A stretch of DNA of 64,000 bases from assembly GCA_021202635.1 (NCBI GenBank), contig JAJQCQ010000079.1, positions 378 to 64,377 of the forward strand. Direction: 5' to 3'. The first letter of the stretch is position 1, and every line of letters begins with the position of its first letter. The position numbers and the translations under genes were made by a program. The stretch is from Lachnospiraceae bacterium. Lineage in GTDB: Bacteria > Bacillota > Clostridia > Lachnospirales > Lachnospiraceae. Positions 2,565-16,876 of this stretch are shown here, one piece after another. The notes beneath the pieces are model-generated. The model made no database searches, was not told the origin of the DNA, and saw only the letters and a program-made list of their open reading frames with translations.

Positions 2565-2572
2565 CCGGCCGA

Positions 2573-2713: not shown

Positions 2714-4600
2714 TTAAGAAGCTGTTTCTATTACTTTTCTAAGTTTCCGCGCCCTACGCTGCGCATAAAATTGTCCCTGTTCCGCCTCTTTTTCGTACCA
2801 GTATACAGCTTTTTCCAGATTTTTCTCACTTCCGTATGCTCCGAACTCATACATAGAACCCAGACGACCCATTGCTCTTGTCGAGTTTAAGGCAGCCGCT
2901 TTTTGATACCATTCGACTGCTTTTGACAGATCGGTTGGAATTATCTCAAAAGAATACAAATAATTATGAGCTACGATTTCCATTGCCCTTACGTTTCCCA
3001 AAGCAGCTTCTTTTTCTCCTATTGCCATCGCCTTATCAAACCACTCCCTTGCCCTATTTGCATTTGCCTCGATGCCTTCTCCTTTTTTATAGCATCTGGC
3101 AACCTGAAAACAGGCATCAAGATCCCCTTCCCGTGTTTTTTCTAAAAATGTCACGAAAGCCTTCTTATACCAGGAATCCGACATTGCCTGATCTTTAAGA
3201 ATACCCTGCCCCTGCTTATACAAATATCCCAGCCGGCTCTGGTTATATGCATCGCCTTGCTCCGCCGCTTTCATACACCATTTTATTGCTTCTGTCATAT
3301 TCTTTGGAGCATACGGTTTCCCGCTTTCATAAGTTCGTGCAACTTCGTATTGTGCCCACAAATTCCCTTGTTCTGCCAGATTTTTTTTCTGAACAAACGC
3401 TTTCGCCCGCCATTCTTCGGCTCTGACATGGTCTTCCTGTACGCCTTTCCCATACTCATACAAGTACGCAAGCATTTCCTGGGCATGAAGATCCCCCTTC
3501 AATGCTGATGTCTGCCATCCGGCAGCCGCGCGAGCATAAAATGCTTCCGCCGTTTTCGTATCCTTCTGCACACCTCTTCCGAATTCAAGCAGGATACCCA
3601 TGCGGTACATGGAATCCGTATCGTTCCTATTTGCTCCCGTTCTGTAGCATTCCGCCGCAGATGGCAGATCAGAAGCCACGCCGCAGCCTTTTTCATACTG
3701 GTATCCCAGGTAATACATCGCGTTCGTATGTCCATGACGCACTGCCTCTTTGAACAGCCCGAATGAAGCTTTATAATCCCCTGCATCGTAAGATTTCTTC
3801 GCTTTCTGGAAGAAATCCTCAGCAGATGTGTCCGGCGACTTAGGAGCTGAATTTAATAAGTTAAAGACGGAAGAAGGACAGACATTACTTTTCTGTATCT
3901 TTTTCTCAACCTGTCCCAAACTTTTATTTTGAACTGTTAAACCAGCAGGCTTATTTTCAGTCGGCTGATGATAAGTATTCTGTTTCATTCCAGAGTCAGC
4001 TATTCCAGGTTTTTGATTCCTGCTTTCCGCAGGGAGCCACCGGATGATGTCACTGTAATAGTCACTTTTGCGGTTCAGTTCATGCTTCGGGTGGATCCGT
4101 ACACGTTCATTATTATTGTTGAATACACATTCAAAGAGCTTTTGTAATGTATCAAAAGACTGGTTTTTCTCTGCCTTGGAAAGACTGCTGCTGCGGATAA
4201 ACGGATCTACCACATGATCCACAAAGTCAACAATATTGCCTACATTTTCCACATCCAGGGCAAGGAATGGTAACGGAACACGCCTGTGGCGCGCCTGCGT
4301 ACGCTCAGACAGTGTTGCCAGTATTTCATGATAACAGTTCTGGCTAATCATAGAGTGGCGGCTGACGTAAAAGAGCATATACACGCAGTCAAAGCTCTCA
4401 ATAGCCGCCATCGCATCATCCCTCCATGAAGGTTTCTGCTTATCCAGGCTTTTTTCATCAAGCCACACATTATACCCCATCTGCTGCAGGTAAAAGACAT
4501 CTTCATACACAATGTGGCAGTCTGCCGCTGAATAGCAAATATATATGTATGGTTTATCCGGATCATAGCTGTTTATTCTATCCAGTATACTGTCTGCCAT
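2714..4600 (-). CDS. TIR-domain protein with C-terminal Sel1 (SLR) repeat array
   Basis: N-terminus PYIYICYSAADCHIVYEDVFYLQQMGYNVWLDEKSL...MLFYVSRHSMISQNCYHEIL fits the TIR pattern, including the conserved Glu (codon 4325-4327). The C-terminal ~350 aa is a run of Sel1 repeats (AMYYLGYQYEKGCGVASDLPSAAECY; LAYLYEYGKGVQEDHVRAEEW; LGYLYKQGQGILKDQAMSDSWY; LGSMYEFGAYGSEKNLEKAVYWY). Start moved to ATG 4600 (GGAGGGA 6 nt upstream). Confidence 0.8.
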   Translation of the reverse strand: MADSILDRINSYDPDKPYIYICYSAADCHIVYEDVFYLQQMGYNVWLDEKSLDKQKPSWRDDAMAAIESFDCVYMLFYVSRHSMISQNCYHEILATLSERTQARHRRVPLPFLALDVENVGNIVDFVDHVVDPFIRSSSLSKAEKNQSFDTLQKLFECVFNNNNERVRIHPKHELNRKSDYYSDIIRWLPAESRNQKPGIADSGMKQNTYHQPTENKPAGLTVQNKSLGQVEKKIQKSNVCPSSVFNLLNSAPKSPDTSAEDFFQKAKKSYDAGDYKASFGLFKEAVRHGHTNAMYYLGYQYEKGCGVASDLPSAAECYRTGANRNDTDSMYRMGILLEFGRGVQKDTKTAEAFYARAAAGWQTSALKGDLHAQEMLAYLYEYGKGVQEDHVRAEEWRAKAFVQKKNLAEQGNLWAQYEVARTYESGKPYAPKNMTEAIKWCMKAAEQGDAYNQSRLGYLYKQGQGILKDQAMSDSWYKKAFVTFLEKTREGDLDACFQVARCYKKGEGIEANANRAREWFDKAMAIGEKEAALGNVRAMEIVAHNYLYSFEIIPTDLSKAVEWYQKAAALNSTRAMGRLGSMYEFGAYGSEKNLEKAVYWYEKEAEQGQFYAQRRARKLRKVIETAS

Positions 4601-4651
4601 AGTTTTTCCCTCCATGCATTATCTTTCGTTGCTATTCCGCTCAGACAATTT

Positions 4652-6088
4652 TTATGCCCGCAGACACAATAATGGCCGCAGAAACGAAATAATCTTTTTG
4701 TATTTTTCTGCATATTTACGCGCTTCTCTGTTACCCAGTTTATCAGCTTTCTGGAACAGTTTCCATGCTTTTTTAATATTTTTTTCATCTCCTTTGGTAT
4801 AGCAGATCCCGGCATGCAGCAGAAACTCCGCATGTTTCTTCCGTCCCAGGGTTCCGGCAATTTCATCTTCTGCATGTAATAACACTTTTTCAAACCAGTA
4901 CCTGGCTCTGTCATATTTCCGGACGTTATAATTTTTCTCCCCTGTTTCATATTGCGCCAGCATATGTCCGAGTTTCGCTGCCTGGCACCGGCATCGGCAT
5001 GCCTCTTTATAATCTCTGTTGCGTCCGCCCCATGCATTTACTGCCAGCTGATAAAGCGCTTCCGCAGATTCTCCTTCTTCCGCTGCCTTCCGGTACCACT
5101 TCAGCGCCTCTGCCACGCTGGTGCCGGATGGCCCCATCCCAAAGCGAAGGCAGTTTCCCGCCATGACCATAGCATCCGTATTTCCTTTTTTTGCCGCCAT
5201 CATGAAGTCCATATATATCTCAAAAAAATTATGCCCGTCCCCGGAAGAACCGTCTGTAAGACCTCTATATAATTGTCTGTAACCTTCCCGGAGCCAGACA
5301 GAGCCGTCAGTATCCTCCTTATATTCTTCCGCTTTTGTTTTTAATGCCATATCCCTGCTGTCGAAGCGGTGCATGTTTTCCAGCAGCCATGTCTGCTTAA
5401 GGGTCTCTGTGTACAGCCTGCCAGTTTTATCGTTTTTGTCAGATATACCAATATGAAGAAGCTCCTGTTCCGCTTTTTCAAATAAATCCTTCGCGATGCC
5501 CGGATCCCTGCTTACACCTGAACCACTGCTATAGCAGCAGCCCAGAAAATACATGCATTCACAGGCAGAGAATGCATCCAGTTCGTTCATTTTGCCGATA
5601 CAGTCCGCATATAACACTTCCAGGAGGAAGCAGGTATCCTTGTCCCCTTCCGGTGAACCAAGCGCCTGCAGGAAATGCCCCACAGCTTCCGGAAATCTTT
5701 TTTCGGAATAACACTTTTTGCCACGTTCATACTGTTCCTGTGCGGTAAGTCCCTCCTGGCATCCAGTCCCATTGCGGTCCGTTTCTCCGCAATGGGAATC
5801 CTGTCTTTCTGCCTGCCAGTCCATTGCCAGATTATTTTCGAACTGTTCCATCTCTTCTGCAGACAGAAGTACAAGGGATGGAAAACTCAGGATATCCCTG
5901 CTGAAGTCCCACCCGCAGCATGCGCAGGCGTTGCCCTCTTTCTCCCTGCTTCCGCATCTTGGACAGGCTGTTGCTGCCCCATTCTCCATGGAAAACAGGT
6001 TCTGCGGGAAAATTTCTGCGGCAGCCGGATTGCAGCAGGGAGTACCCGCCCCTCTGCTGTCCGTCTGGATAAAACCAGCTTCAGCCAT
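4652..6088 (-). CDS. Zinc-ribbon + Sel1-like repeat protein
   Basis: N-terminal CPRC-x8-CACC zinc-ribbon motif. Sel1-like repeats follow (FLGCCYSSGSGVSRDPGIAKDLFEKA; MAGNCLRFGMGPSGTSVAEALKWYRKAAEEG; LYQLAVNAWGGRNRDYKEA). Start ATG 6088 has a GGGGAGGA RBS 5 nt upstream and sits 1 nt after the upstream TGA (6090-6092). Confidence 0.7.
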   Translation of the reverse strand: MAEAGFIQTDSRGAGTPCCNPAAAEIFPQNLFSMENGAATACPRCGSREKEGNACACCGWDFSRDILSFPSLVLLSAEEMEQFENNLAMDWQAERQDSHCGETDRNGTGCQEGLTAQEQYERGKKCYSEKRFPEAVGHFLQALGSPEGDKDTCFLLEVLYADCIGKMNELDAFSACECMYFLGCCYSSGSGVSRDPGIAKDLFEKAEQELLHIGISDKNDKTGRLYTETLKQTWLLENMHRFDSRDMALKTKAEEYKEDTDGSVWLREGYRQLYRGLTDGSSGDGHNFFEIYMDFMMAAKKGNTDAMVMAGNCLRFGMGPSGTSVAEALKWYRKAAEEGESAEALYQLAVNAWGGRNRDYKEACRCRCQAAKLGHMLAQYETGEKNYNVRKYDRARYWFEKVLLHAEDEIAGTLGRKKHAEFLLHAGICYTKGDEKNIKKAWKLFQKADKLGNREARKYAEKYKKIISFLRPLLCLRA

Positions 6089-6089
6089 A

Positions 6090-7514
6090 TCAATCCTCCC
6101 CTTTCCTCTTATGGAATGCCTTCTCCCAGGCACGGATTTCCCGGAGAATGTCTTCCTTCGGGTTCGTCGGGCAGGCCGCCAGCAGGCTGCTGAATTTATC
6201 TTTTCCCAGTATGTACGCCCCTGCTTTTAAAGAATCTATCGCCTCATCCTGGAATTTATCCAGATCCTCGCTGCCTGCGGCCCCCAGGCTCATCCCGCAT
6301 CCGAGGACTGGCCGGCAGGATCCGTTCCATACCGCATCAAGAATATCCAGTTTGATGCTGTTAATCAGGCGGTCCAGATCCCTGTAATTGTAGTTCTCTG
6401 TCATCCCTGCCATACTGTCAAATGTCAGGTCGTCCGCAAGCACCAGACTGCCCGCCAGGTCCCGCTTGAACTTGTCCGCCCTTGCCGCCTGGTCAGGAAG
6501 CCCTACAGAGATCAGATCCATCCGGTCCAGCACGGCGGAATCCACCCTGCCGGGATAATTCGTAGCAGCCACTATATATACCTGGTTCATTTTTTTCTTT
6601 TCCGCAGCCACCATGTCAAACCCGGTCAGGAACGAAGTCGTAAGCGTAGCGGAATGGTCTGGCAGGTCCTGTGCCGACCGGTTCCTGCAGACCCCGTCAA
6701 TCTCGTCAAAAAAGAGGAGACATGGGGCATTCTCAACAGCCATCTGGAAAAGGCTTGTCAGGATTTTTTCTGCCTCGCCCACATAACGGCTGAGGATATC
6801 AGAAACATTGGCAGATATAAATCTGCAGCCGTACCCCGTCATAATTTCATGGGCAAAAGCCTGTATGATATGCGTCTTTCCGCAGCCTGGCGGCCCCACA
6901 AACAGGAGGGCGGCCATATCTTCCAGCTTAAGGTATTTCTTAATTTTCCACATCCGGCTGCTGTCCATATACCTGGCCATGCGTGCTTTTTCTTTCTCCA
7001 TCCCTGCGATATCCTGGAAGCCGTGGCCGGGAGGTTCCTTTTTTATGCATTCCCTGGCAAGTGTTTCCCTCCTCTCCTTTTCACTCTTCCCCGCCTGCAT
7101 GCTCCCTTCCGCCCTGTTCATTCCCGGTCCGGCCGGTCTTTTTGCTGCAGGGACATACAATCCGCCTCCATCCAGGGCCTCCGGTTCCTGCATCTGCGTT
7201 TCCTTCGGGCGCATCATTTTTTCGTAAACCTCCGGGGCAATTTCCTTTATGATATCCAGCATCTGTCCCATAAGCTCCTGAAGCTTTTCCTTCTGGTACT
7301 GTTTTTCTTCCCCCACGCTGATTTTTGCCATCCTGCTGCGCAGCTTTGCTGCCTCAGACAGCAGGGAATATTCTTCCTTCGTATGCGTATTGCCGTTTCT
7401 GTAAAAAACATTCTGGCTTTCCCGCATCAGCCGCAGGCATTTGTTTTCCAGCGCAGACATTGTTTCCATGTAGTTATCCGTCATTCTCCTCCTTGGCGTT
7501 CCGGCCTGTTTCAC
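6090..7514 (-). CDS. Classic-clade AAA+ ATPase, Vps4/katanin-like, with helical N-terminal domain
   Basis: Walker A GPPGCGKT (nt 6873-6896), Walker B LLFFDEID, SRH ATNYPGRVDSAVLDRM. Segments LFQMAVENAPCLLFFDEIDGV and GLPDQAARADKFK parallel yeast Vps4 LFAMARENKPSIIFIDEVDAL and PLPDLAARTTMFE (recalled from memory). The GTG start at 7514 overlaps the upstream TGA (GTGA). An alternative ATG at 7484 follows AAGGAGGAG. Confidence 0.8.
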   Translation of the reverse strand: MKQAGTPRRRMTDNYMETMSALENKCLRLMRESQNVFYRNGNTHTKEEYSLLSEAAKLRSRMAKISVGEEKQYQKEKLQELMGQMLDIIKEIAPEVYEKMMRPKETQMQEPEALDGGGLYVPAAKRPAGPGMNRAEGSMQAGKSEKERRETLARECIKKEPPGHGFQDIAGMEKEKARMARYMDSSRMWKIKKYLKLEDMAALLFVGPPGCGKTHIIQAFAHEIMTGYGCRFISANVSDILSRYVGEAEKILTSLFQMAVENAPCLLFFDEIDGVCRNRSAQDLPDHSATLTTSFLTGFDMVAAEKKKMNQVYIVAATNYPGRVDSAVLDRMDLISVGLPDQAARADKFKRDLAGSLVLADDLTFDSMAGMTENYNYRDLDRLINSIKLDILDAVWNGSCRPVLGCGMSLGAAGSEDLDKFQDEAIDSLKAGAYILGKDKFSSLLAACPTNPKEDILREIRAWEKAFHKRKGED

Positions 7515-8182
7515 TTTAAGAATTCCAGGATCTGGTCATAAAGCACATTCTCATCCCTCGTCCGGGCTGTCATATTATTTTCCGGGAACAGCCGCAGCCA
7601 TTCATCGATCTCCTCATCAGCAGGCTTCTGCGATTCCGCCATGCATTCTTCCAGGCTTTTGCCGTCTATCAGGGCATCAATCACATCCCTGTCCGCCAGG
7701 GCGTCCATCTGTATATCTTCGTTCTGGAACGATGTCTCCAGTTCACTCAGCGCGGCCAGTGTCTTAACAAGCTCTGTCCCTGACTCCGAAGCCTTCTGGT
7801 CCAGGCTTTTCAGGTTATCCTTTACCTTTTTCGAATCCAGGCCATTGACCCGGCCTGAAAGAAAATTCATTTTCTGCAGTGCCGACCCCGTATCACGGAT
7901 TGCCTCCTTCAGTTCCAGGTCTTTACTGATGTTCCGCAGGTTTTTCTGTCCGCGCATGATTGTACAAAGGCTGTAATACGCAATCCCGATCCTTGCATAG
8001 TTGGAACGGTCCGCCAGTCCTTTCTTCTTATCAGCCCTGGCACAGCCCAGTTCAAAGCGGAGAAGCGAATCGTAGGTCTCCTGCAGCTCCCTCAGCTTCA
8101 TATCCAGTTCAAGTATTATCTTATCTGCATCCTGCTTTTTCTTCCCCTTCTGGCCGTTTGTGAAAAATCCCCCAAGTTTCAT
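7511..8182 (-). CDS. ESCRT-III/Snf7/PspA-like coiled-coil protein (223 aa)
   Basis: ESCRT-III-like size, N-terminal MKLGGFF, basic N-half (KGKKKQ, ADKKKG) and acidic C-half. ALQKMNFLSGRVNGLDSKKVKDNLKSLDQKASESGTELVKTL resembles the CHMP4/Snf7 helix-3/4 region. Acidic amphipathic C-terminal EEIDEWLRLF. GGGAGGAGGA RBS 6 nt before ATG 8182. Sits directly upstream of the Vps4-like ATPase. Confidence 0.45.
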   Translation of the reverse strand: MKLGGFFTNGQKGKKKQDADKIILELDMKLRELQETYDSLLRFELGCARADKKKGLADRSNYARIGIAYYSLCTIMRGQKNLRNISKDLELKEAIRDTGSALQKMNFLSGRVNGLDSKKVKDNLKSLDQKASESGTELVKTLAALSELETSFQNEDIQMDALADRDVIDALIDGKSLEECMAESQKPADEEIDEWLRLFPENNMTARTRDENVLYDQILEFLK

Positions 8183-8200
8183 GATGGTTCCTCCTCCCGT

Positions 8201-9331
8201 TTAATCATTTTCCAGCAATGTAGGTTCGGTGTACAGCACCCTGTCCTCCCTAGCTGCCTGTTCTTCGAGCACTTCCGTTTCCTCCTGCATTTCCATATTT
8301 TCCCACGCTTTCCCGGCATCCATCGCATATGTTTTCATGCTGCGGGAAGAGAAAGCCGCCTCGATTACCCTTGAAATGGTCCGGCCGCTTCTTTCCTGTT
8401 CGCTGATCCAGCTTATTTTCCCGCTCACTGCATCCAGGAAATCCCCCTGCACTTCCGGATCCGGAGCAGCCAGCAGAGGCATATCAGCCGCGAAAAAAAC
8501 AGTCCTCTGTTTTTCTATTGCAGCTTCCGTTTCCAGTATTACGGCATAATCCAGGGCAATCATCTTTTCCTGCTCTTCGCAGCTGTTTTTCATATTCCGG
8601 ATTTCGGTCTGGAAATTCGCCAGCTTCATTGCCCCCGCACTGAGCTTCTCCGTCACCCCGGCACTTTCCTCCAGTTCCTCCACGTATCCCGGGTTCGCTT
8701 TCCTGTAAGCCTCCACTTCCCTGTGCCGCATATTATATTCTGTTTTTAATGCTGCCGCCTGCTGTTCGCGTTTCCGTATGGAATTACGCAGGCACTGGAT
8801 GTATTTCCACTTTTCACTGACAGCCAGGTAAGCATCCATCCGCTTCTCCATGTCCCGGGCTTCTTCTTCGCTTTTCACAGGCTTTTTCGCCCGCAGGATC
8901 CCATATTCCAGCCCTTCCAGCATCCAGCGGCATGCTTTCATATTTCCGGCCTGGATACAGCTTCCAAGTCCCTGCAGGAGTTCTTCCAGTTTCCGGTCCG
9001 TCTCCGGGGTGTCGAAACTGCTTAACCTGCCAAGTTCCTCTTTCAGCGGCTCCAGCCGGCGGCGGATTTCCTGAACCTCTTCCGGTTTTAACAGCGATTT
9101 CTCACCCTCCTGGATCTGGATCCCGTTCACTTTTGCCAGGAGCGCCTGTCTGTGCCCGCGCACTTCAGCCACAGTTTTTTCCTCCTCCTGCTTCTTTTCC
9201 GGAGCCGGTTCTTTTGCATCAGACCCGGCCAGCCACATCCAGATTGCCTGGAACGTTTCCCTTATCCATCCCATATTCCTTTCCCATCCTTTCTTCTGGC
9301 AGACCAGCTGTTTCAATGCTTTACCCGGCAT
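8201..9331 (-). CDS. Long coiled-coil protein with aromatic amphipathic N-terminal helix (PspA/ESCRT-III-like?)
   Basis: Heptad-rich, E/K/R/L/Q composition with an acidic tail (MEMQEETEVLEEQAARED). If translation starts at ATG 9274, the N-terminus is MGWIRETFQAIWMWLAG, an amphipathic Trp-rich helix. Start choice (9331 vs 9274) is unresolved; neither has an ideal RBS. Confidence 0.4.
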   Translation of the reverse strand: MPGKALKQLVCQKKGWERNMGWIRETFQAIWMWLAGSDAKEPAPEKKQEEEKTVAEVRGHRQALLAKVNGIQIQEGEKSLLKPEEVQEIRRRLEPLKEELGRLSSFDTPETDRKLEELLQGLGSCIQAGNMKACRWMLEGLEYGILRAKKPVKSEEEARDMEKRMDAYLAVSEKWKYIQCLRNSIRKREQQAAALKTEYNMRHREVEAYRKANPGYVEELEESAGVTEKLSAGAMKLANFQTEIRNMKNSCEEQEKMIALDYAVILETEAAIEKQRTVFFAADMPLLAAPDPEVQGDFLDAVSGKISWISEQERSGRTISRVIEAAFSSRSMKTYAMDAGKAWENMEMQEETEVLEEQAAREDRVLYTEPTLLEND

Positions 9332-9334
9332 GAT

Positions 9335-9835
9335 TCAGCCAGGATCCCCAAACAGTCTTACAATGCACCAGAGGACCAGTCCTGTTACAGCAGACGGGAG
9401 GATGCTCATAATCCCCGCAAGGCCTGCATAGATAAGAAATTCCGCAAAATAATAAGAAAGCGTAGCCCCTTCCTCCGGTGCCGGCAGGATATCCACCCGT
9501 CCGATGAACATCCCGGCAACATACAGAATACTGCTTGCAGCGCATATCATTGTAAAATTCTGGAAATAATGGTCATCATACCCGTACCAGCAGATGCGGA
9601 AAACAAGCAGAAGCACCAGTGTCAGGTTCACTCCCGCCGCCACCATCCGGATCCGGTGCGCCCTCTCATCCGCGCTGCCAAGGAGCACCCACCACACCAG
9701 GACAGAAGCTGCGGCCAGCACCAGAATCACAACGGCCAGAATCCTGGTGAAACGCCCTGCCCTGTAAAAAAATGGCAGATGGATATGAATATCATTCTGG
9801 TCTTTCTTCAATTTTCTCCCCTCCCTTCCCTGCAT
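9335..9835 (-). CDS. Small integral membrane protein (about 4 TM helices)
   Basis: Hydrophobic spans ILAVVILVLAAASVLVWWVLLG, MVAAGVNLTLVLLLVFRICWY, MICAASSILYVAGMFIG and FLIYAGLAGIMSILPSAVTGLVLWCIVRLF. The ORF-track N-terminus (to 10027) overlaps the helicase and looks non-coding. Likely start is ATG 9835, or TTG 9811 preceded by GGGAGGGGAG. Confidence 0.6.
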   Translation of the reverse strand: MQGREGRKLKKDQNDIHIHLPFFYRAGRFTRILAVVILVLAAASVLVWWVLLGSADERAHRIRMVAAGVNLTLVLLLVFRICWYGYDDHYFQNFTMICAASSILYVAGMFIGRVDILPAPEEGATLSYYFAEFLIYAGLAGIMSILPSAVTGLVLWCIVRLFGDPG

Positions 9836-12800
9836 CCGTGGCCGCTGCCTGGCCGGCTGGCAGCGGCGGGAGGTTCCGCAGGATCCGGTGCTGTTCCCGG
9901 ATGGGATCATCGAACCAGTCGAGCGAAAAGACCCACAGCAGGTTCCAGCCCCTGTCCCGGAGCAGTTCCATCTGTCCGGCCTCCCTGTCCTGCACAGATA
10001 AATTCCTGCAGTACTGGCTGGTATCAAGGATCAGGCCAAGCACATAGCGGTCCGGATCGGCCGGATCCCGGATCCCGATATCGACGCGGAACCTTCCTGT
10101 CCCGACAAGGGTATCACACTGGTAACCGCTCTCCCGCAGGAATCCACAGATTTTCATCCGGAACCCGTCTGTATCCGTTTCTTCCTCCGTCTGCACAGTT
10201 TCCGAGCCATTGCCCCGGGCGAACAGCAGGAAATCCCTGAAATCCCTGACGCCCCTCCCGCTGCCTGGAGTGATACGTATCTGCTCCGGATCCAGTGAAG
10301 TGAACAGAAGCATTTCATCCCGTGCCCGCGTAAGGGCAACATTCAGCCTTTTATGTCCTCCGGCCTGTGCCAGGGGGCCAAAGTTCATTGTCAGCCTTCC
10401 TTTTGCATCCGGGCCGTAGCCGGTCGAAAACAGGATCACATCCCTCTCATCCCCCTGTACGCATTCCAGGTTCCGGATAAACAGGGGTTCCCCTTTTTCT
10501 TCCATGTTCCCAAGCGCCTGTTCCAGCTGATGGTTTCCCGCAGCCTCTTCTTCAAGCAGGGAAAGCAACAGCGCCTTCTGGTGAATGTTAAACGTGATGA
10601 TCCCATACGTCCTTCTGTCACCGGAAAGAAGCTTTTCCGCAAGATAAGCGATGCAGGCTTCCGCCTCTGTTCTGTTTGTCATGCTGTGCCCCCTGTCGTA
10701 AACGCCCCGGACGTTCCGGAAATGCACCCTTAGCCTGCGGTCTGCGGATGGGAAGGTCATCATCTTCCCCCCGTAATACCGTCCGTTTGGGAAGGATATC
10801 AGGCTTTCATGCGTACTCCTGTAATGCCATTGCAGGTAATGGTTCGGAAGCGAAAGTGCCAGTGCTTCCTTCAGGATACTTTCCTGGTCTGCGTCAAGCG
10901 GGTTATCGTCCACATCTCCCTCCGCTGCCGCATCAAAGAACGAGGTGGGAGGCATCTGGTTCGGATCCCCTGCAATAATGACCTGTTTTGTCCGGGCAAT
11001 CAGTCCCAGTGCAGCCGGGGTCTGGATCTGGGAAGCTTCGTCAAAAATCACTGCATCCGCCTTCCAGCCCGGCCCCAGATAAAGTGCCGCAGATGCCGGG
11101 GACAGGATCATACAGGGGGCAAGGACAGGGATCAGATCCGGCAGGAGATCCATCATGGAACGGATGCTCATGCCTTTCCCGCCGCTCTGTATCATCCGGT
11201 TCAGGCTGGTCATCTGGGTTTTTATCTTCCCGGGGCCATGTGCAAGCGCTTCATGCGCCCGTTCTGCCAGCCGTCCCCTTATTTTCCTCGCAGAAGCCTC
11301 ATAATATTTCCCCATGGTTTCCCGATAGCGCGCAGCCAGGTCTTCAAACTGAAAACCAGAAAAGCTCCGGATATCTTTATCCGCGCTGTACAAACGCTGA
11401 AGCAGGGCATGGCAGCAGGCGGCACGGAACGACGGAAACAGGCCGTCATGTGGAAGTCCGGATTCATACAGCCGGATAAAGGGTGACAGCTGTAATTCTT
11501 CGCACCGCCTGCGTACGGCCAGATACCCGCTCCATTCCTTTAAGTCATCAAGGCCTTCCTGCCACCGGCTGGCTGCCGCAAGTGCCTCTTCAAGCGTCTC
11601 CCCTCCCTGGTGCCAGAGGGCAGGTACCGGTGCGGCAGCCGCAAGTTTCCGGCTGGCCGCCTCAAGAGTCTTTACCTGGCTGGCGAAAAACTGCAGGCCG
11701 TCATCTGACCGGCTGTCCATCCCTGCGGCAAATTCCGCCAGTTCTTCCTCTGACTGGAACGCTTTTTCCAGAAGGGCAAGGATCGTGGCAGCAGTCTCCA
11801 GGGTAAACTCCCCGTCCGCTTCAATCGATGGCAGCACCGCCCGGATTTTCTGTACCTGCGTCTCCTGTTTTTTTACCAGGCATGCCATTTCCAGAAATTT
11901 CGTGATTTTTCCGTCATTCCACTTTTCAGCTTCCTCCCCAAGGAAGGAAAGCAGTTTCCCACGCAGCGCTGCGTGCTGCCGCCGGAAGCGCAGATCCAGC
12001 ATCCCTTTCTTCCACTGTTCCAGCATTTTCTCCAGCGGAAGCGTAAAAAATCTTTCCCGGTATGGTTCCCTGCAGTGGCCAAGGATCGCATCCCTGCGCT
12101 GCTGATACTGTCCTGCCAGGATCCACTGTTTCAGGGCTGTCAGCGGCCAGGACTGGGAACGCAGGGCTGCCGGAAGCTTCTGCAGGAGCTTTTCTTTCAC
12201 TTCCTCTGATCTGAGCTTTCTGGAAGCCATCTCCAGTCCCTCATAAGTGGTATCCCCCGTCTCGAAGCCTGCTGACATTTCGAGGTTTTTTATCTGGGCA
12301 GCCAGGCTCTGCAGCGCATCCTGATATGCCTCCAGTGCCGGCCGGATATCCCCTGCCATGGACGGGTAATATTCATAGGTTCCCCAGTCACTCAGCGGAT
12401 GCCCGTACGGGTGCCCGGTGTGCCGGCCGGCCTCCGTCAGTTCATGCAGGGCTTCTTCATATTCGTGCATTTTTTCTTTTGCAAGGGTATCCACAAAATC
12501 CTCTTCCAGCGAAAACGGGGGCAGGTATTCTTCCACCAGCAGATACTCTGAAAGCAGCTCACAGGCACTGCTCCCATACAGCCGCGCACCATGCAGCAGA
12601 TGATCCATCCGTTCCAGTTCAGCGGCGGCATCCGTAAGCTCCTGCCGGATTATATCATAGCCCCCATCTGCCTGCGTTTCAGCTTCTGCAGCCTCTTTTG
12701 CCTCCCGCATCTGTTCCAGGAAGGATTCCTTACGGCTGGAAGGAGTAAGATACAGGCAGAAAGGTGTCAGTGAAATTTGGGAAAGCCTGTCATACACCAC

Positions 12801-14939
12801 ATTCATCGCCGGGGCTTTTTCGGCTGAAAAGATTACTCTTTTTCCGGCATATATAAGGCCGCTGACCATATCCGCAATCACCTGGGTTTTTCCGGTCCCG
12901 GGAGGGCCATGCATAACACAGGACTCCCCTCCGAGTGCCGCCGCAATGGCTTCTTTCTGCGATGCATCTGCCGGCAGGGGCAGGACAAGCTCTGACAGTC
13001 TGGAAGGCTTTGCGTCCTTATTCAGATCTTCCGGCAGTTCGCCTGTTAAAAGCCCACGGATAAACGGGTGTTTCTGATACTCGTCCATATTCTCATTCAG
13101 GTCCTTCCAGAGGACAGACCTGCTGAATTCGAAAATGCCAAGTACAGCATTCTCAAAAACATCCAGGTCTGGTTCCAGGGCCAGGGCGTCCCTTAAATAC
13201 GGAAGGCACTTTCTGAAGTCCGGCTGTCCGTCAGAATCAGAAACATGTGCCAGATGAAGGCCTTTCTGTTTTCTCAGGAACTCAAATACAGCTTCATTGT
13301 ACTGTATGGCTCCCTCTGGCCGGATACGGAAGGAACGCCCTTCTTTGATAAGCATTGCCGGGGCCAGGATCAGCGGGGCATAATGGGGCTGTTTTTTCCT
13401 GCCATCCATCCAGCGGATCATTCCGAATGCCAGGCAGAGTGCACCCGAGCCGGTCTGGTCCCTGGTTTCAGTATCTTCCTTCCGCATGGCTGAGAGCAGC
13501 CTGGCAGATGCCCCATCTTCCAGGTCTGTATGCACGGTATCCTGTCCCAGGCTTGCAAGGATCACGTCCTGGCAGGCCCTTGCGCCGGACATCCGTTCAA
13601 AAAGTTCGGCGCTCCGGGAGGAAGCTTCAAAATCTTCCGGCCGGCCCGTAATACGGAGGGTTCTTCCGTTCTTTCCGAACTTGTCATAAAGCTGCCAGCA
13701 TCTGTTTTCCGCCGTGAGAACAGGCACAGCCTTTGAGGAACCGGAAGACAGGGACAGGTTCAGAAGCGGCGACCGCGCCGAGAGATCCAGCAGTCTGTTT
13801 ATCCATTTTTCCTTTTTCCCGGCTGCAGTATACCCTGGCATCTGCCGTTCTTCCGGTACGGGATACGAAAAATCTCCCGCAGGTACCCGGCGGCCAGCCT
13901 CCTCCTGCAGTACGGCCATCTGCCGCCCAGTCAGGAGGGAAGGCATGGGCGTCACCCCTGCTTTCCTGCTCCTGCTGATATCTGCCGCACGGAAATAATC
14001 GATTTTTTCATACAGATGCGCCTCAGCCGATGCTGCCGCAGCCTGAAAGCCGCAGATATATTTCCCCCGTGAAGCACAGGTGGCCTCAAAGAGGATGATA
14101 TCGCGGTTTCCTTCCCCGCATTTCTTCCGGAAAAAGGACGGGTCCGTACTGACCGGCTGGTCAAGAATCCCTTTTTCATTCAGCCACAGGCCGCATATCG
14201 CATGGCTTTCCAGCCTGTCCGTCTTCAGGCTGATCACGAACGGGTGCAGGCCCATTGCCTCAAGGCATGAGGCAAAAAGCAGGCTGAATTCAATGCAGTT
14301 TCCTGCATGCTCACTAAGCATATCGCCAGCCATCCGGATTCTCTGATAGCCCGGAAGATAGGTTGGCCTGGAAGAAATATACGCAATCTTCTGTTCCGCA
14401 ACTGCCCTGAACAGGCAGGACGCGTACTGTATTACTTTTTCTTTCGATCCGCCCTGGTAAGCCGAGATCGAATATCCGTTTCCTGATTCTGCCAGGAGTT
14501 CGGAGACCCTTGAAAGGATGCCGGGGATAAGCGGGTGATTCGGTGTCACGTAGGCTGCGATCTGGTAGAAATCTTTTTCCCAATGGCTCAGAAGATCCAG
14601 GGTCTGGAAGGGAATCGTGATGCTTTTTTCTGCCAGTATTTTTTCACCATCACGCATCTGTACCTGCACGGTGCCATCTGCCGCCTCTGTAAAAGCAAGG
14701 AGCGGCTCCGGGGTCCATGTAAAAACCGGGTCTGCTATTTTCTTTGTTTCCCCCGGCTCCAGGGAAATGCTTTCCGTATATTCTTGAAAAACTGCCGGGC
14801 TGGCAGTAATACGCAGCTCTCCCGCTGCCGGTTCCCTGCCTGTGTTTCTGACTGTAAGGTGTTCTACAAACGGCTTTGCGTTAAGATGGGCTGCATATTG
14901 AAAAATCGCCGGAAGAGTGAAATGAATCTGAACTGCCAT
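9792..14939 (-). CDS. Giant transglutaminase-like / DUF4011 / SF1 (Upf1-DNA2-like, AAA_11+AAA_12) helicase with C-terminal restriction-endonuclease-like domain (~1715 aa)
   Basis: Transglutaminase core HAGNCIEFSLLFASCLEAMGL (Cys codon 14295-14297) followed by ...SHAICGLW. DUF4011-like WINRLLDLSARSPLLNLS. Walker A HGPPGTGKTQ (12885-12908). Helicase motifs VIFDEASQ, IIAGDPNQMPP, LQWHYRS, VQGDERDVILFS and RLNVALTRAR. Tail RFRVDIGIRDPADPDRYVLGLILD...GWNLLWVFSLDWFDDP resembles DUF559/Vsr-like REase folds. Start set at ATG 14939 (AAGGGGGA RBS); the upstream 51 codons look non-coding. Confidence 0.85.
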   Translation of the reverse strand: MAVQIHFTLPAIFQYAAHLNAKPFVEHLTVRNTGREPAAGELRITASPAVFQEYTESISLEPGETKKIADPVFTWTPEPLLAFTEAADGTVQVQMRDGEKILAEKSITIPFQTLDLLSHWEKDFYQIAAYVTPNHPLIPGILSRVSELLAESGNGYSISAYQGGSKEKVIQYASCLFRAVAEQKIAYISSRPTYLPGYQRIRMAGDMLSEHAGNCIEFSLLFASCLEAMGLHPFVISLKTDRLESHAICGLWLNEKGILDQPVSTDPSFFRKKCGEGNRDIILFEATCASRGKYICGFQAAAASAEAHLYEKIDYFRAADISRSRKAGVTPMPSLLTGRQMAVLQEEAGRRVPAGDFSYPVPEERQMPGYTAAGKKEKWINRLLDLSARSPLLNLSLSSGSSKAVPVLTAENRCWQLYDKFGKNGRTLRITGRPEDFEASSRSAELFERMSGARACQDVILASLGQDTVHTDLEDGASARLLSAMRKEDTETRDQTGSGALCLAFGMIRWMDGRKKQPHYAPLILAPAMLIKEGRSFRIRPEGAIQYNEAVFEFLRKQKGLHLAHVSDSDGQPDFRKCLPYLRDALALEPDLDVFENAVLGIFEFSRSVLWKDLNENMDEYQKHPFIRGLLTGELPEDLNKDAKPSRLSELVLPLPADASQKEAIAAALGGESCVMHGPPGTGKTQVIADMVSGLIYAGKRVIFSAEKAPAMNVVYDRLSQISLTPFCLYLTPSSRKESFLEQMREAKEAAEAETQADGGYDIIRQELTDAAAELERMDHLLHGARLYGSSACELLSEYLLVEEYLPPFSLEEDFVDTLAKEKMHEYEEALHELTEAGRHTGHPYGHPLSDWGTYEYYPSMAGDIRPALEAYQDALQSLAAQIKNLEMSAGFETGDTTYEGLEMASRKLRSEEVKEKLLQKLPAALRSQSWPLTALKQWILAGQYQQRRDAILGHCREPYRERFFTLPLEKMLEQWKKGMLDLRFRRQHAALRGKLLSFLGEEAEKWNDGKITKFLEMACLVKKQETQVQKIRAVLPSIEADGEFTLETAATILALLEKAFQSEEELAEFAAGMDSRSDDGLQFFASQVKTLEAASRKLAAAAPVPALWHQGGETLEEALAAASRWQEGLDDLKEWSGYLAVRRRCEELQLSPFIRLYESGLPHDGLFPSFRAACCHALLQRLYSADKDIRSFSGFQFEDLAARYRETMGKYYEASARKIRGRLAERAHEALAHGPGKIKTQMTSLNRMIQSGGKGMSIRSMMDLLPDLIPVLAPCMILSPASAALYLGPGWKADAVIFDEASQIQTPAALGLIARTKQVIIAGDPNQMPPTSFFDAAAEGDVDDNPLDADQESILKEALALSLPNHYLQWHYRSTHESLISFPNGRYYGGKMMTFPSADRRLRVHFRNVRGVYDRGHSMTNRTEAEACIAYLAEKLLSGDRRTYGIITFNIHQKALLLSLLEEEAAGNHQLEQALGNMEEKGEPLFIRNLECVQGDERDVILFSTGYGPDAKGRLTMNFGPLAQAGGHKRLNVALTRARDEMLLFTSLDPEQIRITPGSGRGVRDFRDFLLFARGNGSETVQTEEETDTDGFRMKICGFLRESGYQCDTLVGTGRFRVDIGIRDPADPDRYVLGLILDTSQYCRNLSVQDREAGQMELLRDRGWNLLWVFSLDWFDDPIREQHRILRNLPPLPAGQAAATDAGKGGEKIEERPE

Positions 14940-16134
14940 TATAAAGTCCCCCTTTCTGGGTCTGTCCTGCTGTTTCAGTATCTGCCTGGAAAACCGGCGG
15001 GGAACCCCTGTACCACTCCCCGCCTGCGGCAAGCACAAGCCAGGCACACTGCCTCTCATCAAGTACGATACCGGCATGCCAGGAGCCTTCACATTTTGGG
15101 GTTTCCACCGAAATGCGGCGTATCTGTTCGTTCACGCCTGTCCTCCCGCCCGTCCGGATAATTACAGAAACCTCCAGGATATCCGTGCCGGTGTGTTTTG
15201 TCCGGGCAAACTCCTGCCCCAGCCAGACCACTTCCCCATCCGCAAGAATACCTAAGTCAGCCAGGTCCGTCCTTTTTTCCTCCGGCGTTATCCTTCCGTT
15301 TTCCATCCTGTAAGTGTAATAAAGGATGCCTGTCTGGACTCCGCAAAGTGTCTGGTGCTGGGAACCGCGATCTTTCCAGACAGGGTTTTTCCTGTTCCCG
15401 TCTTTTGCGCAGAGGACATTATCCATGAATTCCAGCACAGGCTCCAGTTCGTCCTCTTCCAGGTTTCCCCACCATCTGCCATCTCCACTGGCAGCAGTTT
15501 CTCCGGAAATGCCTCTTTTCCGCCCCAGGCAGCCTGCCTTTTCGAATTTTTCAGCCACCATGATATCCACACTGCTGTTTCCCAGGGCAATGAAAGAAAA
15601 CGCCCTGGCCGCCGCTTCCAGGAGTTCCAGATCCTGTTCTTTTTCCGCCAGTTCCATATCATCAAGCAGATCACGCAGCTGTGTCTCTCCTTCTGCCATA
15701 CTTTCCAGGATATGGCAGCCAGGGACAGAAAAAAGTTCCATAAGTGCTTCCAGAAGCATATCAGCCAGCGCCTCTGTTCTTTCTGCATCCAGGCTGTATG
15801 CCCATTCCAGTTTTCCGTGAAGCATGCGGCCGATTTTTTCCCTGCCATTTTTGCCAGGCATATGGAAAGATCCTGGCATAAACCGTGCAAGGAATTCATA
15901 AGGCAGAAAATTTTTCTCCGCAGCCCGTTTCCGAATTTCGCTGATTCCCGGAAAAATCCCATCCACCCAGGAGCGGTCACCTATAAGGAAATCCAGTGTT
16001 CCTGCGGCATCAGGAGTATCCTGCAAAAAAATCACCTGTTTCCCGCATTGCATATCTTTCTGCCTGGCGCTCAGCGCATACAGTTCTGCTTCCAGTCCTG
16101 GAGTGTATTCTGACAGCATCCTGGCCGGGATCAC
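14881..16134 (-). CDS. Hypothetical protein, downstream piece of a gene split at an A7 tract
   Basis: 417-codon ORF beginning at GTG with no recognisable family. A TGA lies 10 codons upstream in this frame. Removing one A from the A7 run (T7 on + strand, 16145-16151) joins it to the 16010..16516 ORF. The last 59 nt overlap the helicase start. Confidence 0.5.
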   Translation of the reverse strand: MIPARMLSEYTPGLEAELYALSARQKDMQCGKQVIFLQDTPDAAGTLDFLIGDRSWVDGIFPGISEIRKRAAEKNFLPYEFLARFMPGSFHMPGKNGREKIGRMLHGKLEWAYSLDAERTEALADMLLEALMELFSVPGCHILESMAEGETQLRDLLDDMELAEKEQDLELLEAAARAFSFIALGNSSVDIMVAEKFEKAGCLGRKRGISGETAASGDGRWWGNLEEDELEPVLEFMDNVLCAKDGNRKNPVWKDRGSQHQTLCGVQTGILYYTYRMENGRITPEEKRTDLADLGILADGEVVWLGQEFARTKHTGTDILEVSVIIRTGGRTGVNEQIRRISVETPKCEGSWHAGIVLDERQCAWLVLAAGGEWYRGSPPVFQADTETAGQTQKGGLYNGSSDSFHSSGDFSICSPS

Positions 16135-16516
16135 GAATGCCCTGTTTTTTTCCTTCCTGCTTCAGCAGCTGGATCATCAGGCGGAGCAGATGTTCCGGGG
16201 AAACCAGAAACTCCGTAACCTGGCCAGCCTCATGCATGGTTCTTCTCACCCTTTTTTCCATATCGGATGAGAGAAGCGCTTCCAGCGACTCCTGGTCACG
16301 CACCTGCAGCCGCAGACGGGGTCCCTCCCGCACATGCACAGGCCAGCTGCTTTTCTTTTTGGAGCCGTTCCGGCATGCGAAAAACACTTCATCCCAGCCC
16401 TTTTTTTTCATCTGGTAATGGAGATAGCCGGGCATATCCAGCTTCCGCAGGCTGCCATTGTCAGCCAGGCATATGCTTTCATCCGGGTCATAAAGCATAA
16501 AATGAAACAGACTCAT
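16010..16516 (-). CDS. Hypothetical protein, upstream piece of the same split gene
   Basis: ATG 16516 is preceded by GGGGAGGTGA (5-nt spacer). After ...LMIQLLKQEGKK (the A7 tract) the remaining 41 codons overlap the 14881..16134 ORF and look out of frame. Confidence 0.5.
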   Translation of the reverse strand: MSLFHFMLYDPDESICLADNGSLRKLDMPGYLHYQMKKKGWDEVFFACRNGSKKKSSWPVHVREGPRLRLQVRDQESLEALLSSDMEKRVRRTMHEAGQVTEFLVSPEHLLRLMIQLLKQEGKKQGIRDPGQDAVRIHSRTGSRTVCAERQAERYAMRETGDFFAGYS

Positions 16517-16534
16517 AACTGTCACCTCCCCGTA

Positions 16535-16813
16535 TCAATGGACAAACACTGTTTTCAGCAGAAGGATGTATTCCTTTTCCCGGAGATACAAAGCTGCAAG
16601 TTCCATCACTTTCGCTGTTTCATGCAGAGGAAGTACATCAAGATACTCTTTTATGATCTTCTCATACACAGCTGCATCCGGGCAGAAACTGAGGCTCCCC
16701 CTGAGTACCAGATAGGAATTAAGGGATACTTCAAGGGACAGAAGCTCCTCGTCTGCCATCATTCCGGTTCGAAATTTTAACAATGTCCTCACCCTCCGCT
16801 TCTCGACATTCAT
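16535..16813 (-). CDS. Small hypothetical protein (92 aa), first gene of the minus-strand operon
   Basis: ORF directly downstream of a sigma70-like promoter and 18 nt upstream of the next start. Predicted helical; no family recognised. Confidence 0.4.
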   Translation of the reverse strand: MNVEKRRVRTLLKFRTGMMADEELLSLEVSLNSYLVLRGSLSFCPDAAVYEKIIKEYLDVLPLHETAKVMELAALYLREKEYILLLKTVFVH

Positions 16814-16852: not shown

Positions 16853-16876
16853 TTTCAATCCTCATTATTCCGGCTG

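What the first reader, a model, noticed from the sequence alone, without database searches (positions are those of the whole stretch)
2714..16813. ~14-kb same-strand operon combining TIR, Sel1 adaptors, a Vps4-like AAA+/ESCRT-III-like pair, a 4-TM protein and a giant transglutaminase-helicase-nuclease: candidate undescribed conflict/defence system
Seen:
- Every gene from 16813 down to 2714 is on the minus strand.
- Junctions are minimal or overlapping: GTGA start/stop overlap at 7511-7514; TGA-1 nt-ATG at 6088-6092; an 18-nt gap at 8183-8200; a 3-nt gap at 9332-9334; helicase stop inside the next gene's start region at 9792-9835; a 59-nt overlap at 14881-14939.
- Most starts have strong GGAGG-type RBSs.
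- There is one sigma70-like promoter upstream (16825-16852), and a 12-bp hairpin downstream of the last gene (2573-2614).

Established: TIR NADase-like domains, SF1 helicases with REase-like tails, AAA+ ATPases and small membrane proteins are the recurrent parts list of abortive-infection and anti-phage systems.

Inference: I know of no described system with this composition, especially with ESCRT-III/Vps4-like proteins and Sel1 adaptors. The locus is therefore a good candidate for a new multi-component system.

Caveat: one upstream gene is split at an A7 tract (16145-16151), so this copy may be inactive or mis-assembled.
Basis: partly seen in the sequence, partly recalled or inferred. Interest (0 to 1): 0.9.

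Follow-up and report, generated by a model that had tools for sequence, protein, structure and literature searches.

The report
Undescribed Clostridial multi-ATPase cassette carrying defence enzymes
The 14-kb operon is real and is a cut-down, helicase- and TIR-carrying version of a gene cassette found in dozens of gut and rumen Clostridia; I found no description of it, it repeatedly carries DNA-acting enzymes known from anti-phage systems, and it is therefore a good candidate for a new bacterial immune machine.

Summary
Ten tightly packed minus-strand genes (2714-16813) have strong ribosome-binding sites and a real downstream hairpin. Three details need correcting: the AAA+ gene starts at ATG 7484, not GTG 7514; the promoter match is no better than chance; a second A-tract differs between two assemblies.

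- Five parts recur together in about 40 loci (about 30 lineages) of Lachnospiraceae, Oscillospiraceae and Ruminococcus: the C-terminal part of g3, the 4-TM protein, the 376-aa and 223-aa helical proteins, and the AAA+ ATPase.
- There the cassette normally also holds an Hsp70-like ATPase, a conserved ~600-aa protein with a coiled-coil C-terminal part, a long coiled-coil protein and a second AAA-like protein. The window copy lacks all four.
- Roughly half the lineages embed one DNA-directed NTPase of a known defence type: DUF4011 helicase-nuclease (Hhe/ProA/PDC-S37-like, as here), DptH/DndH-like, or BrxL-like.
- TIR occurs only in this copy.
- The "ESCRT-III-like" label found no support in profile, structure or fold searches. 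"Vps4-like" holds only for the general AAA+ type.
- PADLOC, NCBIfam, Pfam and the paper library do not describe the cassette.

Best reading: a new membrane-associated conflict system. Its function is untested, and this copy may be decayed.

The parts
16830..16858 (-). Sigma-70-like promoter match (TTGAAA-17-CAAAAT) upstream of g1
   Evidence: 9 of 12 matches. The number of such sites in the region equals the shuffle expectation, so this is only a candidate.
16535..16813 (-). g1, 92-aa orphan protein
   Evidence: an ORF with no family hit. No counterpart in the related loci.
16010..16525 (-). g2, 171-aa orphan. Probable start ATG 16516. Holds the polymorphic A8 tract (16401-16408) and ends after the A7 tract.
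   Evidence: The two assemblies differ at the A8/A7 tract. No homologue in the related loci.
16145..16151 (-). A7 tract that separates the g2 and g3 reading frames. A6 would give one ORF of about 548 aa.
   Evidence: Sequence reading. The tract is the same in the second assembly.
14881..16134 (-). g3, 417 aa. The C-terminal part (about 15022-15360) is homologous to the conserved small cassette protein 'C' (about 165 aa), which carries an N-terminal zinc ribbon in other loci but not here.
   Evidence: HMM E = 4.7e-11. Zinc-ribbon hits in the L007 homologue.
9792..14939 (-). Giant SF1 helicase-nuclease: sub-threshold transglutaminase-like region (about 14244-14429), DUF4011 (13317-13796), AAA_11/AAA_12 helicase core, and C-terminal MTES_1575 REase (9870-10163)
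   Evidence: Pfam. (PDC-S37 E = 1.6e-235, Hhe 3.9e-98). (NCBIfam ProA 1200 bits against a cut-off of 1500; Hhe 498 bits). (Transglut_core 16 bits). (35.5% identity over 1728 aa to the L009 orthologue in the same operon position).
9335..9835 (-). 4-TM membrane protein (166 aa, TTG start), cassette family 'F'
   Evidence: Homologues of 152-166 aa in L001, L004, L007, L014-L018 and L027.
8201..9331 (-). g6, all-helical protein, cassette family 'B' (probable start 9274). Small helical bundle followed by a long helical hairpin.
   Evidence: AF2 model with pLDDT 71.5. No significant fold match. Weak MIT-domain profile hits, E 0.07-0.18.
7511..8182 (-). g7, 223-aa helical protein, cassette family 'D'. 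Conserved short C-terminal helices (residues about 160-183).
   Evidence: 54 representatives among 1.84 billion. AF2 pLDDT 72. No ESCRT-III or PspA match.
6090..7484 (-). AAA+ ATPase, classical clade, single AAA domain. Family-specific N-terminal helical domain of about 95 aa, then a low-complexity linker.
   Evidence: CDC48 108 bits, CdvC 98 bits; IetA 74 bits.
4652..6088 (-). Sel1-repeat protein with an N-terminal Cys-rich (zinc-ribbon-like) segment
   Evidence: The N-terminal 170 aa resemble the Sel1 protein next to the cassette in L004.
2714..4615 (-). TIR (about 4271-4546) fused to Sel1 repeats (about 2726-3778)
   Evidence: TIR_2 38.3 bits against a cut-off of 28; Sel1 155 bits. An S-x-x-C-x-x-E-I motif with the candidate catalytic Glu is seen (inference). 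No TIR in any related locus.
2570..2616 (-). Strong hairpin after the last gene, between convergent genes
   Evidence: -37.5 kcal/mol, z = -4.4. Not followed by a T-run.

Best explanation
The operon is a reduced, effector-loaded variant of a multi-protein cassette of gut and rumen Clostridia for which I found no description.

The usual cassette, in gene order:
- a ~600-aa protein with a conserved N-terminal domain and a coiled-coil C-terminal part;
- an Hsp70-like ATPase;
- a long coiled-coil protein;
- a small zinc-ribbon protein (C);
- often a 4-TM protein (F);
- two helical proteins (B, D);
- a classical-clade AAA+ ATPase with its own N-terminal helical domain;
- a second AAA-like protein.

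Into or directly behind this chassis different lineages have inserted one DNA-directed NTPase of a kind known from anti-phage systems. The window copy keeps C (fused into g3), F, B, D and the AAA+. It carries a DUF4011 helicase-REase between C and F, plus a Sel1 protein and a TIR-Sel1 protein.

Proposed working (inferred, not shown):
1. B and D have short hydrophobic-basic N-termini and form a helical assembly at the membrane with the 4-TM protein.
2. The AAA+ ATPase binds the conserved C-terminal helix of D and remodels or disassembles that assembly.
3. On phage or plasmid entry this releases or activates the helicase-nuclease against invading DNA.
4. In this copy the TIR-Sel1 protein acts as an NAD-consuming back-up.
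For: Shown:
- Operon structure.
- The C-F-B-D-AAA order recurs at 20-41% protein identity in L001-L011, L013-L032 and L169-L183.
- The family is rare and patchy: 20 of 185,579 species representatives were found, all Clostridia, and 1 of 2.9 million viral contigs.
- Defence-type NTPases sit inside the gene array.
  - DUF4011 helicase: window, L009 (same position, 35% identity), L007, L020.
  - BrxL-like ATPase between AAA and AAA2: L023-L025, and fragments next to the AAA+ on the short contig L177.
  - DptH/DndH-like ATPase: L019, L028, L030, L171-L175, L178, L179, L183 (E = 2.7e-113 to PDB 7es4).
- The helicase matches PDC-S37, Hhe and ProA.
- The TIR domain is above the Pfam threshold.
- The operon centre has 52-56% GC against 45-47% in the flanks.

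Inferred: membrane association, from the 4-TM protein and the N-terminal motifs, and the AAA+-D contact.
Against: - There is no functional data.
- About half of the lineages carry no recognisable effector, so the chassis may have a non-immune function.
- No cassette protein matches any PADLOC model except generic AAA hits.
- The flanks are mostly repeat proteins (LRR_5, RCC1, DUF285, Sel1) rather than classic defence islands.
- The window copy lacks four canonical genes and has one or two frameshifts in g2/g3, so it may be inactive.
- The folds of B and D could not be assigned.
- The helicase family is listed as a single-gene candidate system (PDC-S37; the 'S' prefix for single-gene systems is my own knowledge) and may act alone.
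Confidence: 0.5

Rival explanations
1. Juxtaposition rather than one machine. A self-sufficient single-gene defence helicase (Hhe/ProA/PDC-S37 type) and a self-sufficient TIR-Sel1 abortive-infection protein have landed in or beside a cassette with an unrelated cell-biological function. They share only a promoter.
For: - PDC-S37 and Hhe are one-gene systems (own knowledge for Hhe, Gao et al. 2020).
- The helicase sits at three different positions in four lineages.
- TIR is unique to this copy.
- The Sel1 and TIR genes have 46-47% GC against 52-56% for the core.
Against: - Three unrelated defence-type NTPases have been inserted independently inside the same array, between conserved neighbours.
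- Coding regions overlap (59 nt and about 40 nt here).
- The helicase position and the helicase itself are conserved between the window and L009 at only 35% identity.
Confidence: 0.25
2. The cassette is a membrane-remodelling, envelope-stress or protein-sorting machine (analogous to PspA or ESCRT) of some Clostridia, perhaps serving the neighbouring repeat proteins. It is not an immune system.
For: - A 4-TM protein, helical proteins with hydrophobic-basic N-termini, AAA+ and Hsp70-like ATPases.
- The most frequent neighbours are LRR_5, RCC1, DUF285 and Sel1 proteins.
- PspA and Snf7 homologues are known to pair with AAA+ ATPases in some bacteria (PMC11237479).
Against: - No detectable homology of B or D to PspA or Snf7.
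- Very patchy distribution.
- Nucleases and DNA translocases are embedded in about half of the lineages.
- A TIR domain is present here.
Confidence: 0.15
3. This particular copy is a decaying remnant. It has lost the Hsp70 module and the second AAA-like gene, it carries a frameshifted g2/g3, and it is no longer functional as a system. The helicase and TIR genes may still work alone.
For: - Family HMMs find no H_620, Hsp70, coiled-coil or AAA2 gene anywhere in the 64-kb window.
- Frameshift at the A7 tract, plus a second tract that varies between assemblies.
- Only one lineage of this architecture was found.
Against: - All retained genes are intact with good RBSs.
- Homopolymer differences may be sequencing errors or phase variation.
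- The B, D and AAA+ proteins keep the family's conserved residues.
Confidence: 0.3

Closest known systems
Hhe (Gao et al. 2020), PADLOC candidate PDC-S37, NCBIfam 'anti-phage protein ProA' (NF058533)
   Same: g4 has the same architecture: DUF4011, SF1 helicase (AAA_11/AAA_12), C-terminal MTES_1575 REase. It aligns over nearly its full length to the ProA and PDC-S37 models.
   Different: It scores below the ProA and Hhe equivalog cut-offs (1200 against 1500 bits; 498 against 2000). Here it is embedded, with overlapping reading frames, in a multi-gene cassette rather than standing alone. I could not find the publication behind 'ProA'.
Vps4/CdvC with ESCRT-III/CdvB (archaea, eukaryotes), and bacterial PspA or Snf7 paired with AAA+ (PMC11237479)
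   Same: A single-domain classical AAA+ with an N-terminal helical domain and a flexible linker is encoded right after two helical proteins. CdvC scores 98 bits. By my reading, the pore-loop and SRH motifs resemble the Vps4/spastin/katanin group (own knowledge).
   Different: B and D show no sequence, profile or fold match to Snf7, PspA or Vipp1. The N-terminal domain does not match MIT. The cassette adds Hsp70-like, coiled-coil and zinc-ribbon proteins that ESCRT and Psp systems lack.
IetAS (Gao et al. 2020) and TRIP13/Pch2 of CBASS
   Same: The best PADLOC hits of the AAA+ are IetA (E = 2.3e-21) and TRIP13 (E = 1.5e-16), both defence-associated AAA+ regulators.
   Different: There is no IetS protease and no HORMA or CD-NTase partner. 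The hits cover only the generic AAA module.
Zorya and Kiwa (functional analogy only)
   Same: A membrane-anchored component plus long helical or coiled-coil proteins is coupled to a helicase-nuclease effector. One related locus has a flanking ORF that matches ZorD/DpdE.
   Different: No homology to ZorA/B/C or KwaA/B. The analogy comes from my own knowledge of those systems and was not tested.
Thoeris and other TIR abortive-infection proteins (e.g. SpbK)
   Same: A TIR domain with a conserved candidate catalytic Glu. ThsB1 gives a weak hit, E = 0.0066.
   Different: No ThsA-type effector. The TIR is fused to Sel1 repeats and is present in only this one copy of the cassette.

Membership tests
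ESCRT-III / PspA / Vipp1 superfamily (for g7 and g6) | Match to the Snf7 (PF03357) or PspA_IM30 (PF04012) profile, or to solved ESCRT-III/PspA sequences | tested here: not met
   No such Pfam hit for six D-family members even at E <= 10, nor for g6 and an L007 B-family member at E up to 1. No PDB profile hit for A2, A5 or A3. hhalign against E. coli PspA gives probability below 1%. The only trace is CdvB at 17 bits, E = 0.003, in the acidic tail.
ESCRT-III / PspA / Vipp1 superfamily (for g7 and g6) | Fold: long alpha1-alpha2/3 hairpin followed by alpha4 and alpha5 | tested here: inconclusive
   The AF2 models are all-helical. g6 has a hairpin of 58 and 50 residues followed by two helices. g7 has helices 19-53, 59-83 and 88-112. 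Foldseek finds nothing with E below 0.1; Vipp1 6zvr is rank 47 at E = 1.2.
ESCRT-III / PspA / Vipp1 superfamily (for g7 and g6) | Membrane-bound polymer that is remodelled by an ATPase | not testable with these tools
   Only indirect hints: short hydrophobic-basic N-termini (MGLF.K, MKF.PLF.KK) in both families.
Vps4 / meiotic-clade AAA+ | Single classical AAA domain with Walker A and B, sensor 1 and Arg finger | tested here: met
   PF00004 at 99 bits. GPPGCGKT, DEIDG, ATNYP and LDR are invariant in the family. CdvC 98 bits. VPS4B 2zam 164 bits in one stretch.
Vps4 / meiotic-clade AAA+ | N-terminal MIT domain that binds ESCRT-III tails | tested here: not met
   A profile of the N-terminal 95 residues finds no MIT domain in the PDB.
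Hhe / ProA / PDC-S37 helicase-nucleases | DUF4011 + SF1 helicase core + C-terminal MTES_1575 REase | tested here: met
   All three are above the Pfam thresholds. PDC-S37 E = 1.6e-235 over residues 428-1747.
Hhe / ProA / PDC-S37 helicase-nucleases | Score above the NCBIfam equivalog cut-off | tested here: not met
   ProA 1200.5 bits against 1500; Hhe 498 bits against 2000. It is a relative, not an equivalog.
TIR-domain NADase effectors | TIR domain above the family threshold | tested here: met
   TIR_2 38.3 bits against a cut-off of 28, residues 24-115.
TIR-domain NADase effectors | Catalytic glutamate in the alphaC region | tested here: inconclusive
   'SQNCYHEI' fits the S-x-W-C-x-x-E-L pattern known from plant and bacterial TIRs. 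This rests on sequence inspection and my own knowledge; no alignment to characterised TIRs was made.
Thoeris | ThsB TIR together with a ThsA (SIR2 or Macro-SLOG) effector | tested here: not met
   ThsB1 only at E = 0.0066. No ThsA-like protein in the operon.
IetAS | IetA ATPase paired with the IetS subtilase | tested here: not met
   IetA at 74 bits on the AAA module only. No protease in the operon.
Transglutaminase-like (papain-fold) domain in the helicase N-terminus | Pfam Transglut_core above the gathering score, with a Cys-His-Asp triad | tested here: inconclusive
   16 bits here and 21 bits in the L009 orthologue, against a cut-off of 23, both over the Cys region. The G-N-C-I-E-F and S-H-A motifs are visible in the sequence.

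The most novel reading that the evidence does not exclude
Gut Clostridia possess a previously unrecognised immune machine. A membrane-associated helical-protein assembly, driven by Hsp70-like and Vps4-type AAA+ ATPases (an ESCRT/PspA analogue by logic, not by detectable homology), senses infection at the envelope. It then deploys interchangeable DNA-directed effectors: a DUF4011 helicase-nuclease, a DptH-like ATPase or a BrxL-like ATPase, and here also a TIR NADase.
Probability: 0.2. Interest if true: 0.9.

Novelty: categorically new. Interest (0 to 1): 0.78.

Why it matters
If the cassette is an immune system, it would add a large machine of eight or more core genes and several ATPases to the known defence repertoire. 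Six of its core protein families have no Pfam, PADLOC or NCBIfam model. It would also show chaperone-type ATPases (Hsp70-like and classical AAA+) and membrane-proximal helical proteins being used to control nucleases.

It occurs in abundant human-gut and rumen Clostridia, where phage defence is poorly charted.

The natural swapping of Hhe/ProA-like, DptH-like and BrxL-like modules on one chassis gives a handle on how those poorly understood enzymes are regulated.

If it is instead a membrane or secretion machine, it is still an undescribed Hsp70/AAA+ apparatus.

Tried and rejected
- Word-indexed protein search with g7 alone, and with a concatenated g6+g7 alignment, returned only the window's own proteins. 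The second search was swamped by low-complexity candidates.
It worked only after the homologues were registered through other look-ups.
- ESCRT-III or PspA identity of g7 and g6: profile, structure and hhalign tests were all negative or insignificant.
- MIT identity of the AAA+ N-terminal domain: negative at profile level. The weak MIT hits of the g6 profile (E 0.07-0.18) were not confirmed by fold search.
- Homology of g2 or the g3 N-terminus to the cassette's coiled-coil protein: none.
- A shared N-terminal 'adaptor' domain in the flanking repeat proteins: the BLAST cluster came mostly from RCC1 repeats. Only g9 and the L004 Sel1 protein share an N-terminal region.
- Ten literature searches found no description of the cassette, of PDC-S37, or of the origin of 'ProA'.
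- Phage origin: only one IMG/VR contig carries a family member, at a contig edge.
- No tRNA genes were found in the window and no tandem repeats in its first 22 kb.

Full report
**1. The observation**

Every sizeable ORF between 16813 and 2714 that fits a gene model lies on the minus strand.

The junctions, read directly from the sequence, show tight coupling and mostly GGAGG-type ribosome-binding sites:
- g1 stop to g2: GGGGAGGTG.
- g3 and the helicase overlap by 59 nt. The helicase ATG is at 14939, behind AAAGGGGGA.
- The helicase stop lies inside the start of the 4-TM gene (TTG 9835, behind GGGAGGGGAG).
- 3 nt between the 4-TM gene and g6.
- 18 nt between g6 and g7, with GGGAGGAGG.
- TGA-T-ATG between the AAA+ gene and the Sel1 gene.

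Three corrections are needed.
- The 'GTGA overlap' at 7511-7514 comes from taking the longest ORF. All homologues start where the window protein reads MTDNY, and that ATG (7484) sits behind AAGGAGGAG.
- The TIR gene probably starts at 4600, and g6 at 9274.
- The promoter-like site is one of 12 in a region where shuffles give 11.8, so it carries no weight.

The downstream hairpin is real (-37.5 kcal/mol, z = -4.4), but it has no T-run.

The A7 tract at 16145-16151 does separate g2 from g3, and A6 would fuse them. A second public assembly of the same locus (Logan SRR15221328, L012) is 99.995% identical over 18.2 kb. Its single difference is another homopolymer inside g2: A8 at 16401-16408 in the window, A7 there. 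The g2/g3 region is therefore either error-prone, phase-variable or decaying.

**2. What the genes are**

- Pfam confirms TIR_2 plus Sel1 in the last gene, Sel1 in the gene before it, one AAA domain in the 474-aa ORF, and DUF4011 + AAA_11/AAA_12 + MTES_1575 in the giant protein.
- The giant protein is a close relative of recognised anti-phage helicase-nucleases: PADLOC candidate PDC-S37 (E = 1.6e-235), Hhe (3.9e-98), and NCBIfam 'anti-phage protein ProA' (1200 bits against a cut-off of 1500).
- Its N-terminal transglutaminase-like region is only sub-threshold: 16 bits here and 21 bits in the orthologue.
- g1, g2, g3, the 4-TM protein, g6 and g7 match nothing in Pfam, NCBIfam or PADLOC.

**3. 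Related loci**

The AAA+ protein has about 100 full-length relatives at 32-43% identity in gut Clostridia. I looked up five of them. I then scanned one genome per species (20 full-length hits, all Lachnospiraceae, Oscillospiraceae, Ruminococcus or other Clostridia) and the metagenome collection. Family HMMs built from the first loci show one recurrent array:

H_620 - Hsp70-like ATPase - coiled-coil protein of about 450-650 aa - small zinc-ribbon protein C - (4-TM protein F) - B - D - AAA+ - AAA2

The window's g6 is B, g7 is D, the 4-TM protein is F, and the C-terminal third of g3 is C. Identities are only 20-30% for these proteins, so the gene order is conserved over long divergence.

The window copy lacks H_620, the Hsp70-like gene, the coiled-coil gene and AAA2 anywhere in its 64 kb. 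It is the only copy with a TIR domain.

**4. Embedded defence-type enzymes**

The DUF4011 helicase recurs in four lineages:
- the window;
- L009, between C and B as in the window, at 35.5% identity over 1728 residues;
- L020, directly after AAA2;
- L007, further downstream.

Two other enzyme types are embedded in other lineages.
- Three Ruminococcus-type loci carry a BrxL-like ATPase between AAA and AAA2; a fourth, short contig (L177) has BrxL-like fragments next to the AAA+. PDB 8emc matches at E = 8e-44 and PADLOC BrxL at 1e-201.
- At least eight lineages carry a DptH/DndH-like ATPase after AAA2 or between the two AAA genes. PDB 7es4 matches at E = 2.7e-113.
- One flanking ORF matches ZorD/DpdE. 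I did not establish which ORF it is.

So about half of the lineages hold, inside the array, one DNA-directed NTPase of a type otherwise known from anti-phage systems, and the type is swapped between lineages. This is the strongest argument for a conflict function and for functional coupling.

**5. The ESCRT-III / Vps4 idea**

The AAA+ is a classical-clade, single-domain ATPase with all catalytic motifs. NCBIfam scores it alongside CDC48 (108 bits) and CdvC (98 bits). VPS4B aligns in one stretch. By my own reading, the pore loop (SRYVGEAEK) and the short SRH resemble the Vps4/spastin/katanin group. It has a conserved N-terminal helical domain of about 95 residues followed by a low-complexity linker, as Vps4 does. 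A profile of that domain, however, finds no MIT domain.

For g7, an exhaustive HMMER search found 54 representatives. From these I built an AlphaFold model (pLDDT 72). It shows helices at 19-53, 59-83, 88-112 and 117-130, and a confidently placed, conserved short C-terminal helical element. Foldseek against the PDB gives nothing better than E = 0.4 and no ESCRT-III or PspA entry.

For g6, the model (pLDDT 71.5) shows a small bundle and a hairpin of 58 and 50 residues. Again there is no significant match; Vipp1 is at rank 47, E = 1.2.

Profile and hhalign tests against PDB sequences and E. coli PspA are negative. Both families do have short hydrophobic-basic N-termini, which is compatible with membrane binding. 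'ESCRT-III-like' therefore remains an analogy without evidence of homology.

**6. Context**

- Flanking genes of the related loci are mostly repeat proteins: LRR_5, RCC1, DUF285, Sel1 and ankyrin. Some loci also have mobile-element or toxin-antitoxin genes.
- The window itself is chromosomal, with transposase, resolvase and Tn916-type integrase genes elsewhere.
- The operon centre has 52-56% GC against 45-47% around it.
- Only one viral contig carries a family member.

**7. Interpretation**

The finding is best read as a reduced, effector-loaded copy of an undescribed Clostridial multi-ATPase cassette that is probably a conflict system.

The mechanism I propose is that a membrane-associated B/D assembly, remodelled by the AAA+, gates the helicase-nuclease and the TIR protein. 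This is inference from the parts list. Only the gene association, the domain identities and the conservation are shown.

Three rivals remain open:
- mere juxtaposition of autonomous defence genes with a cassette of some other function;
- a membrane or secretion machine that is not an immune system;
- decay of this particular copy.

**8. Novelty**

None of PADLOC 2.0, NCBIfam 20.0, Pfam or ten full-text literature searches describes the cassette. The closest published statement is that some bacterial PspA or Snf7 genes pair with AAA+ ATPases (PMC11237479), which is a different gene set. The helicase alone is a new member of a known family. The cassette as a whole appears new.

Noticed in passing
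window 16401-16408 (compare L012 1776-1782): A homopolymer inside g2 is A8 in the window but A7 in an otherwise identical Logan assembly. It is the only difference in 18.2 kb. Possible slip-strand phase variation, or a sequencing error.
   Followed up: partly
L023, L024, L025 (about 7.6-9.1 kb in L023/L025, 3.8-5.3 kb in L024) and L026 5944-8667: In these Ruminococcus-type cassettes the B family is replaced by an unrelated family of 430-500 aa ('X480') with no PDB sequence match. The AAA+ and AAA2 proteins are also longer there (about 550-575 aa).
   Followed up: partly
related loci, e.g. L004 12398-17021, L025 15080-19218, L031 1-2382, L011 12263-15211: Arrays of repeat proteins (Sel1, LRR_5 fused to RCC1, DUF285, ankyrin) sit next to the cassette in many lineages. 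Some have N-terminal zinc ribbons, as the cassette's small C protein does. Their relation to the cassette is unexplained.
   Followed up: partly
window 17017-20280 (+) and 168-2564 (+): Two large ORFs flank the operon, of 1087 aa and 798 aa (959 aa in L012). Neither has any Pfam hit or any counterpart in the related loci. The first is transcribed divergently from the operon's upstream end.
   Followed up: no
window 31031-33751 (-): A RecD2-type helicase with a C-terminal DUF4186 domain fused to it.
   Followed up: no
window 20407-21075 (-), 23743-24795 (+), 35235-36116 (-): A small VWA-domain protein, a short T4SS coupling-protein (TraG/VirD4-like) ORF and a DUF2971 protein lie within 20 kb of the operon. 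Transposase, resolvase and Tn916-type integrase genes occur further along (30-63 kb; exact ORFs not assigned). These are hints of a mobile-element-rich neighbourhood.
   Followed up: no
L029 7054-10374 (probable): One flanking ORF in the survey matches ZorD/DpdE (SNF2 helicase with Mrr-like nuclease, E = 1e-106). The only ORF long enough lies directly after AAA2 in L029. If so, it would be a fourth type of defence helicase attached to the cassette.
   Followed up: no
L031 13885-16470; L093 1048-3585: Some relatives carry an extra or enlarged AAA+ protein (845-861 aa) of the same family. L093 is the only IMG/VR 'viral' contig with a family member, and the gene sits at the contig edge.
   Followed up: no
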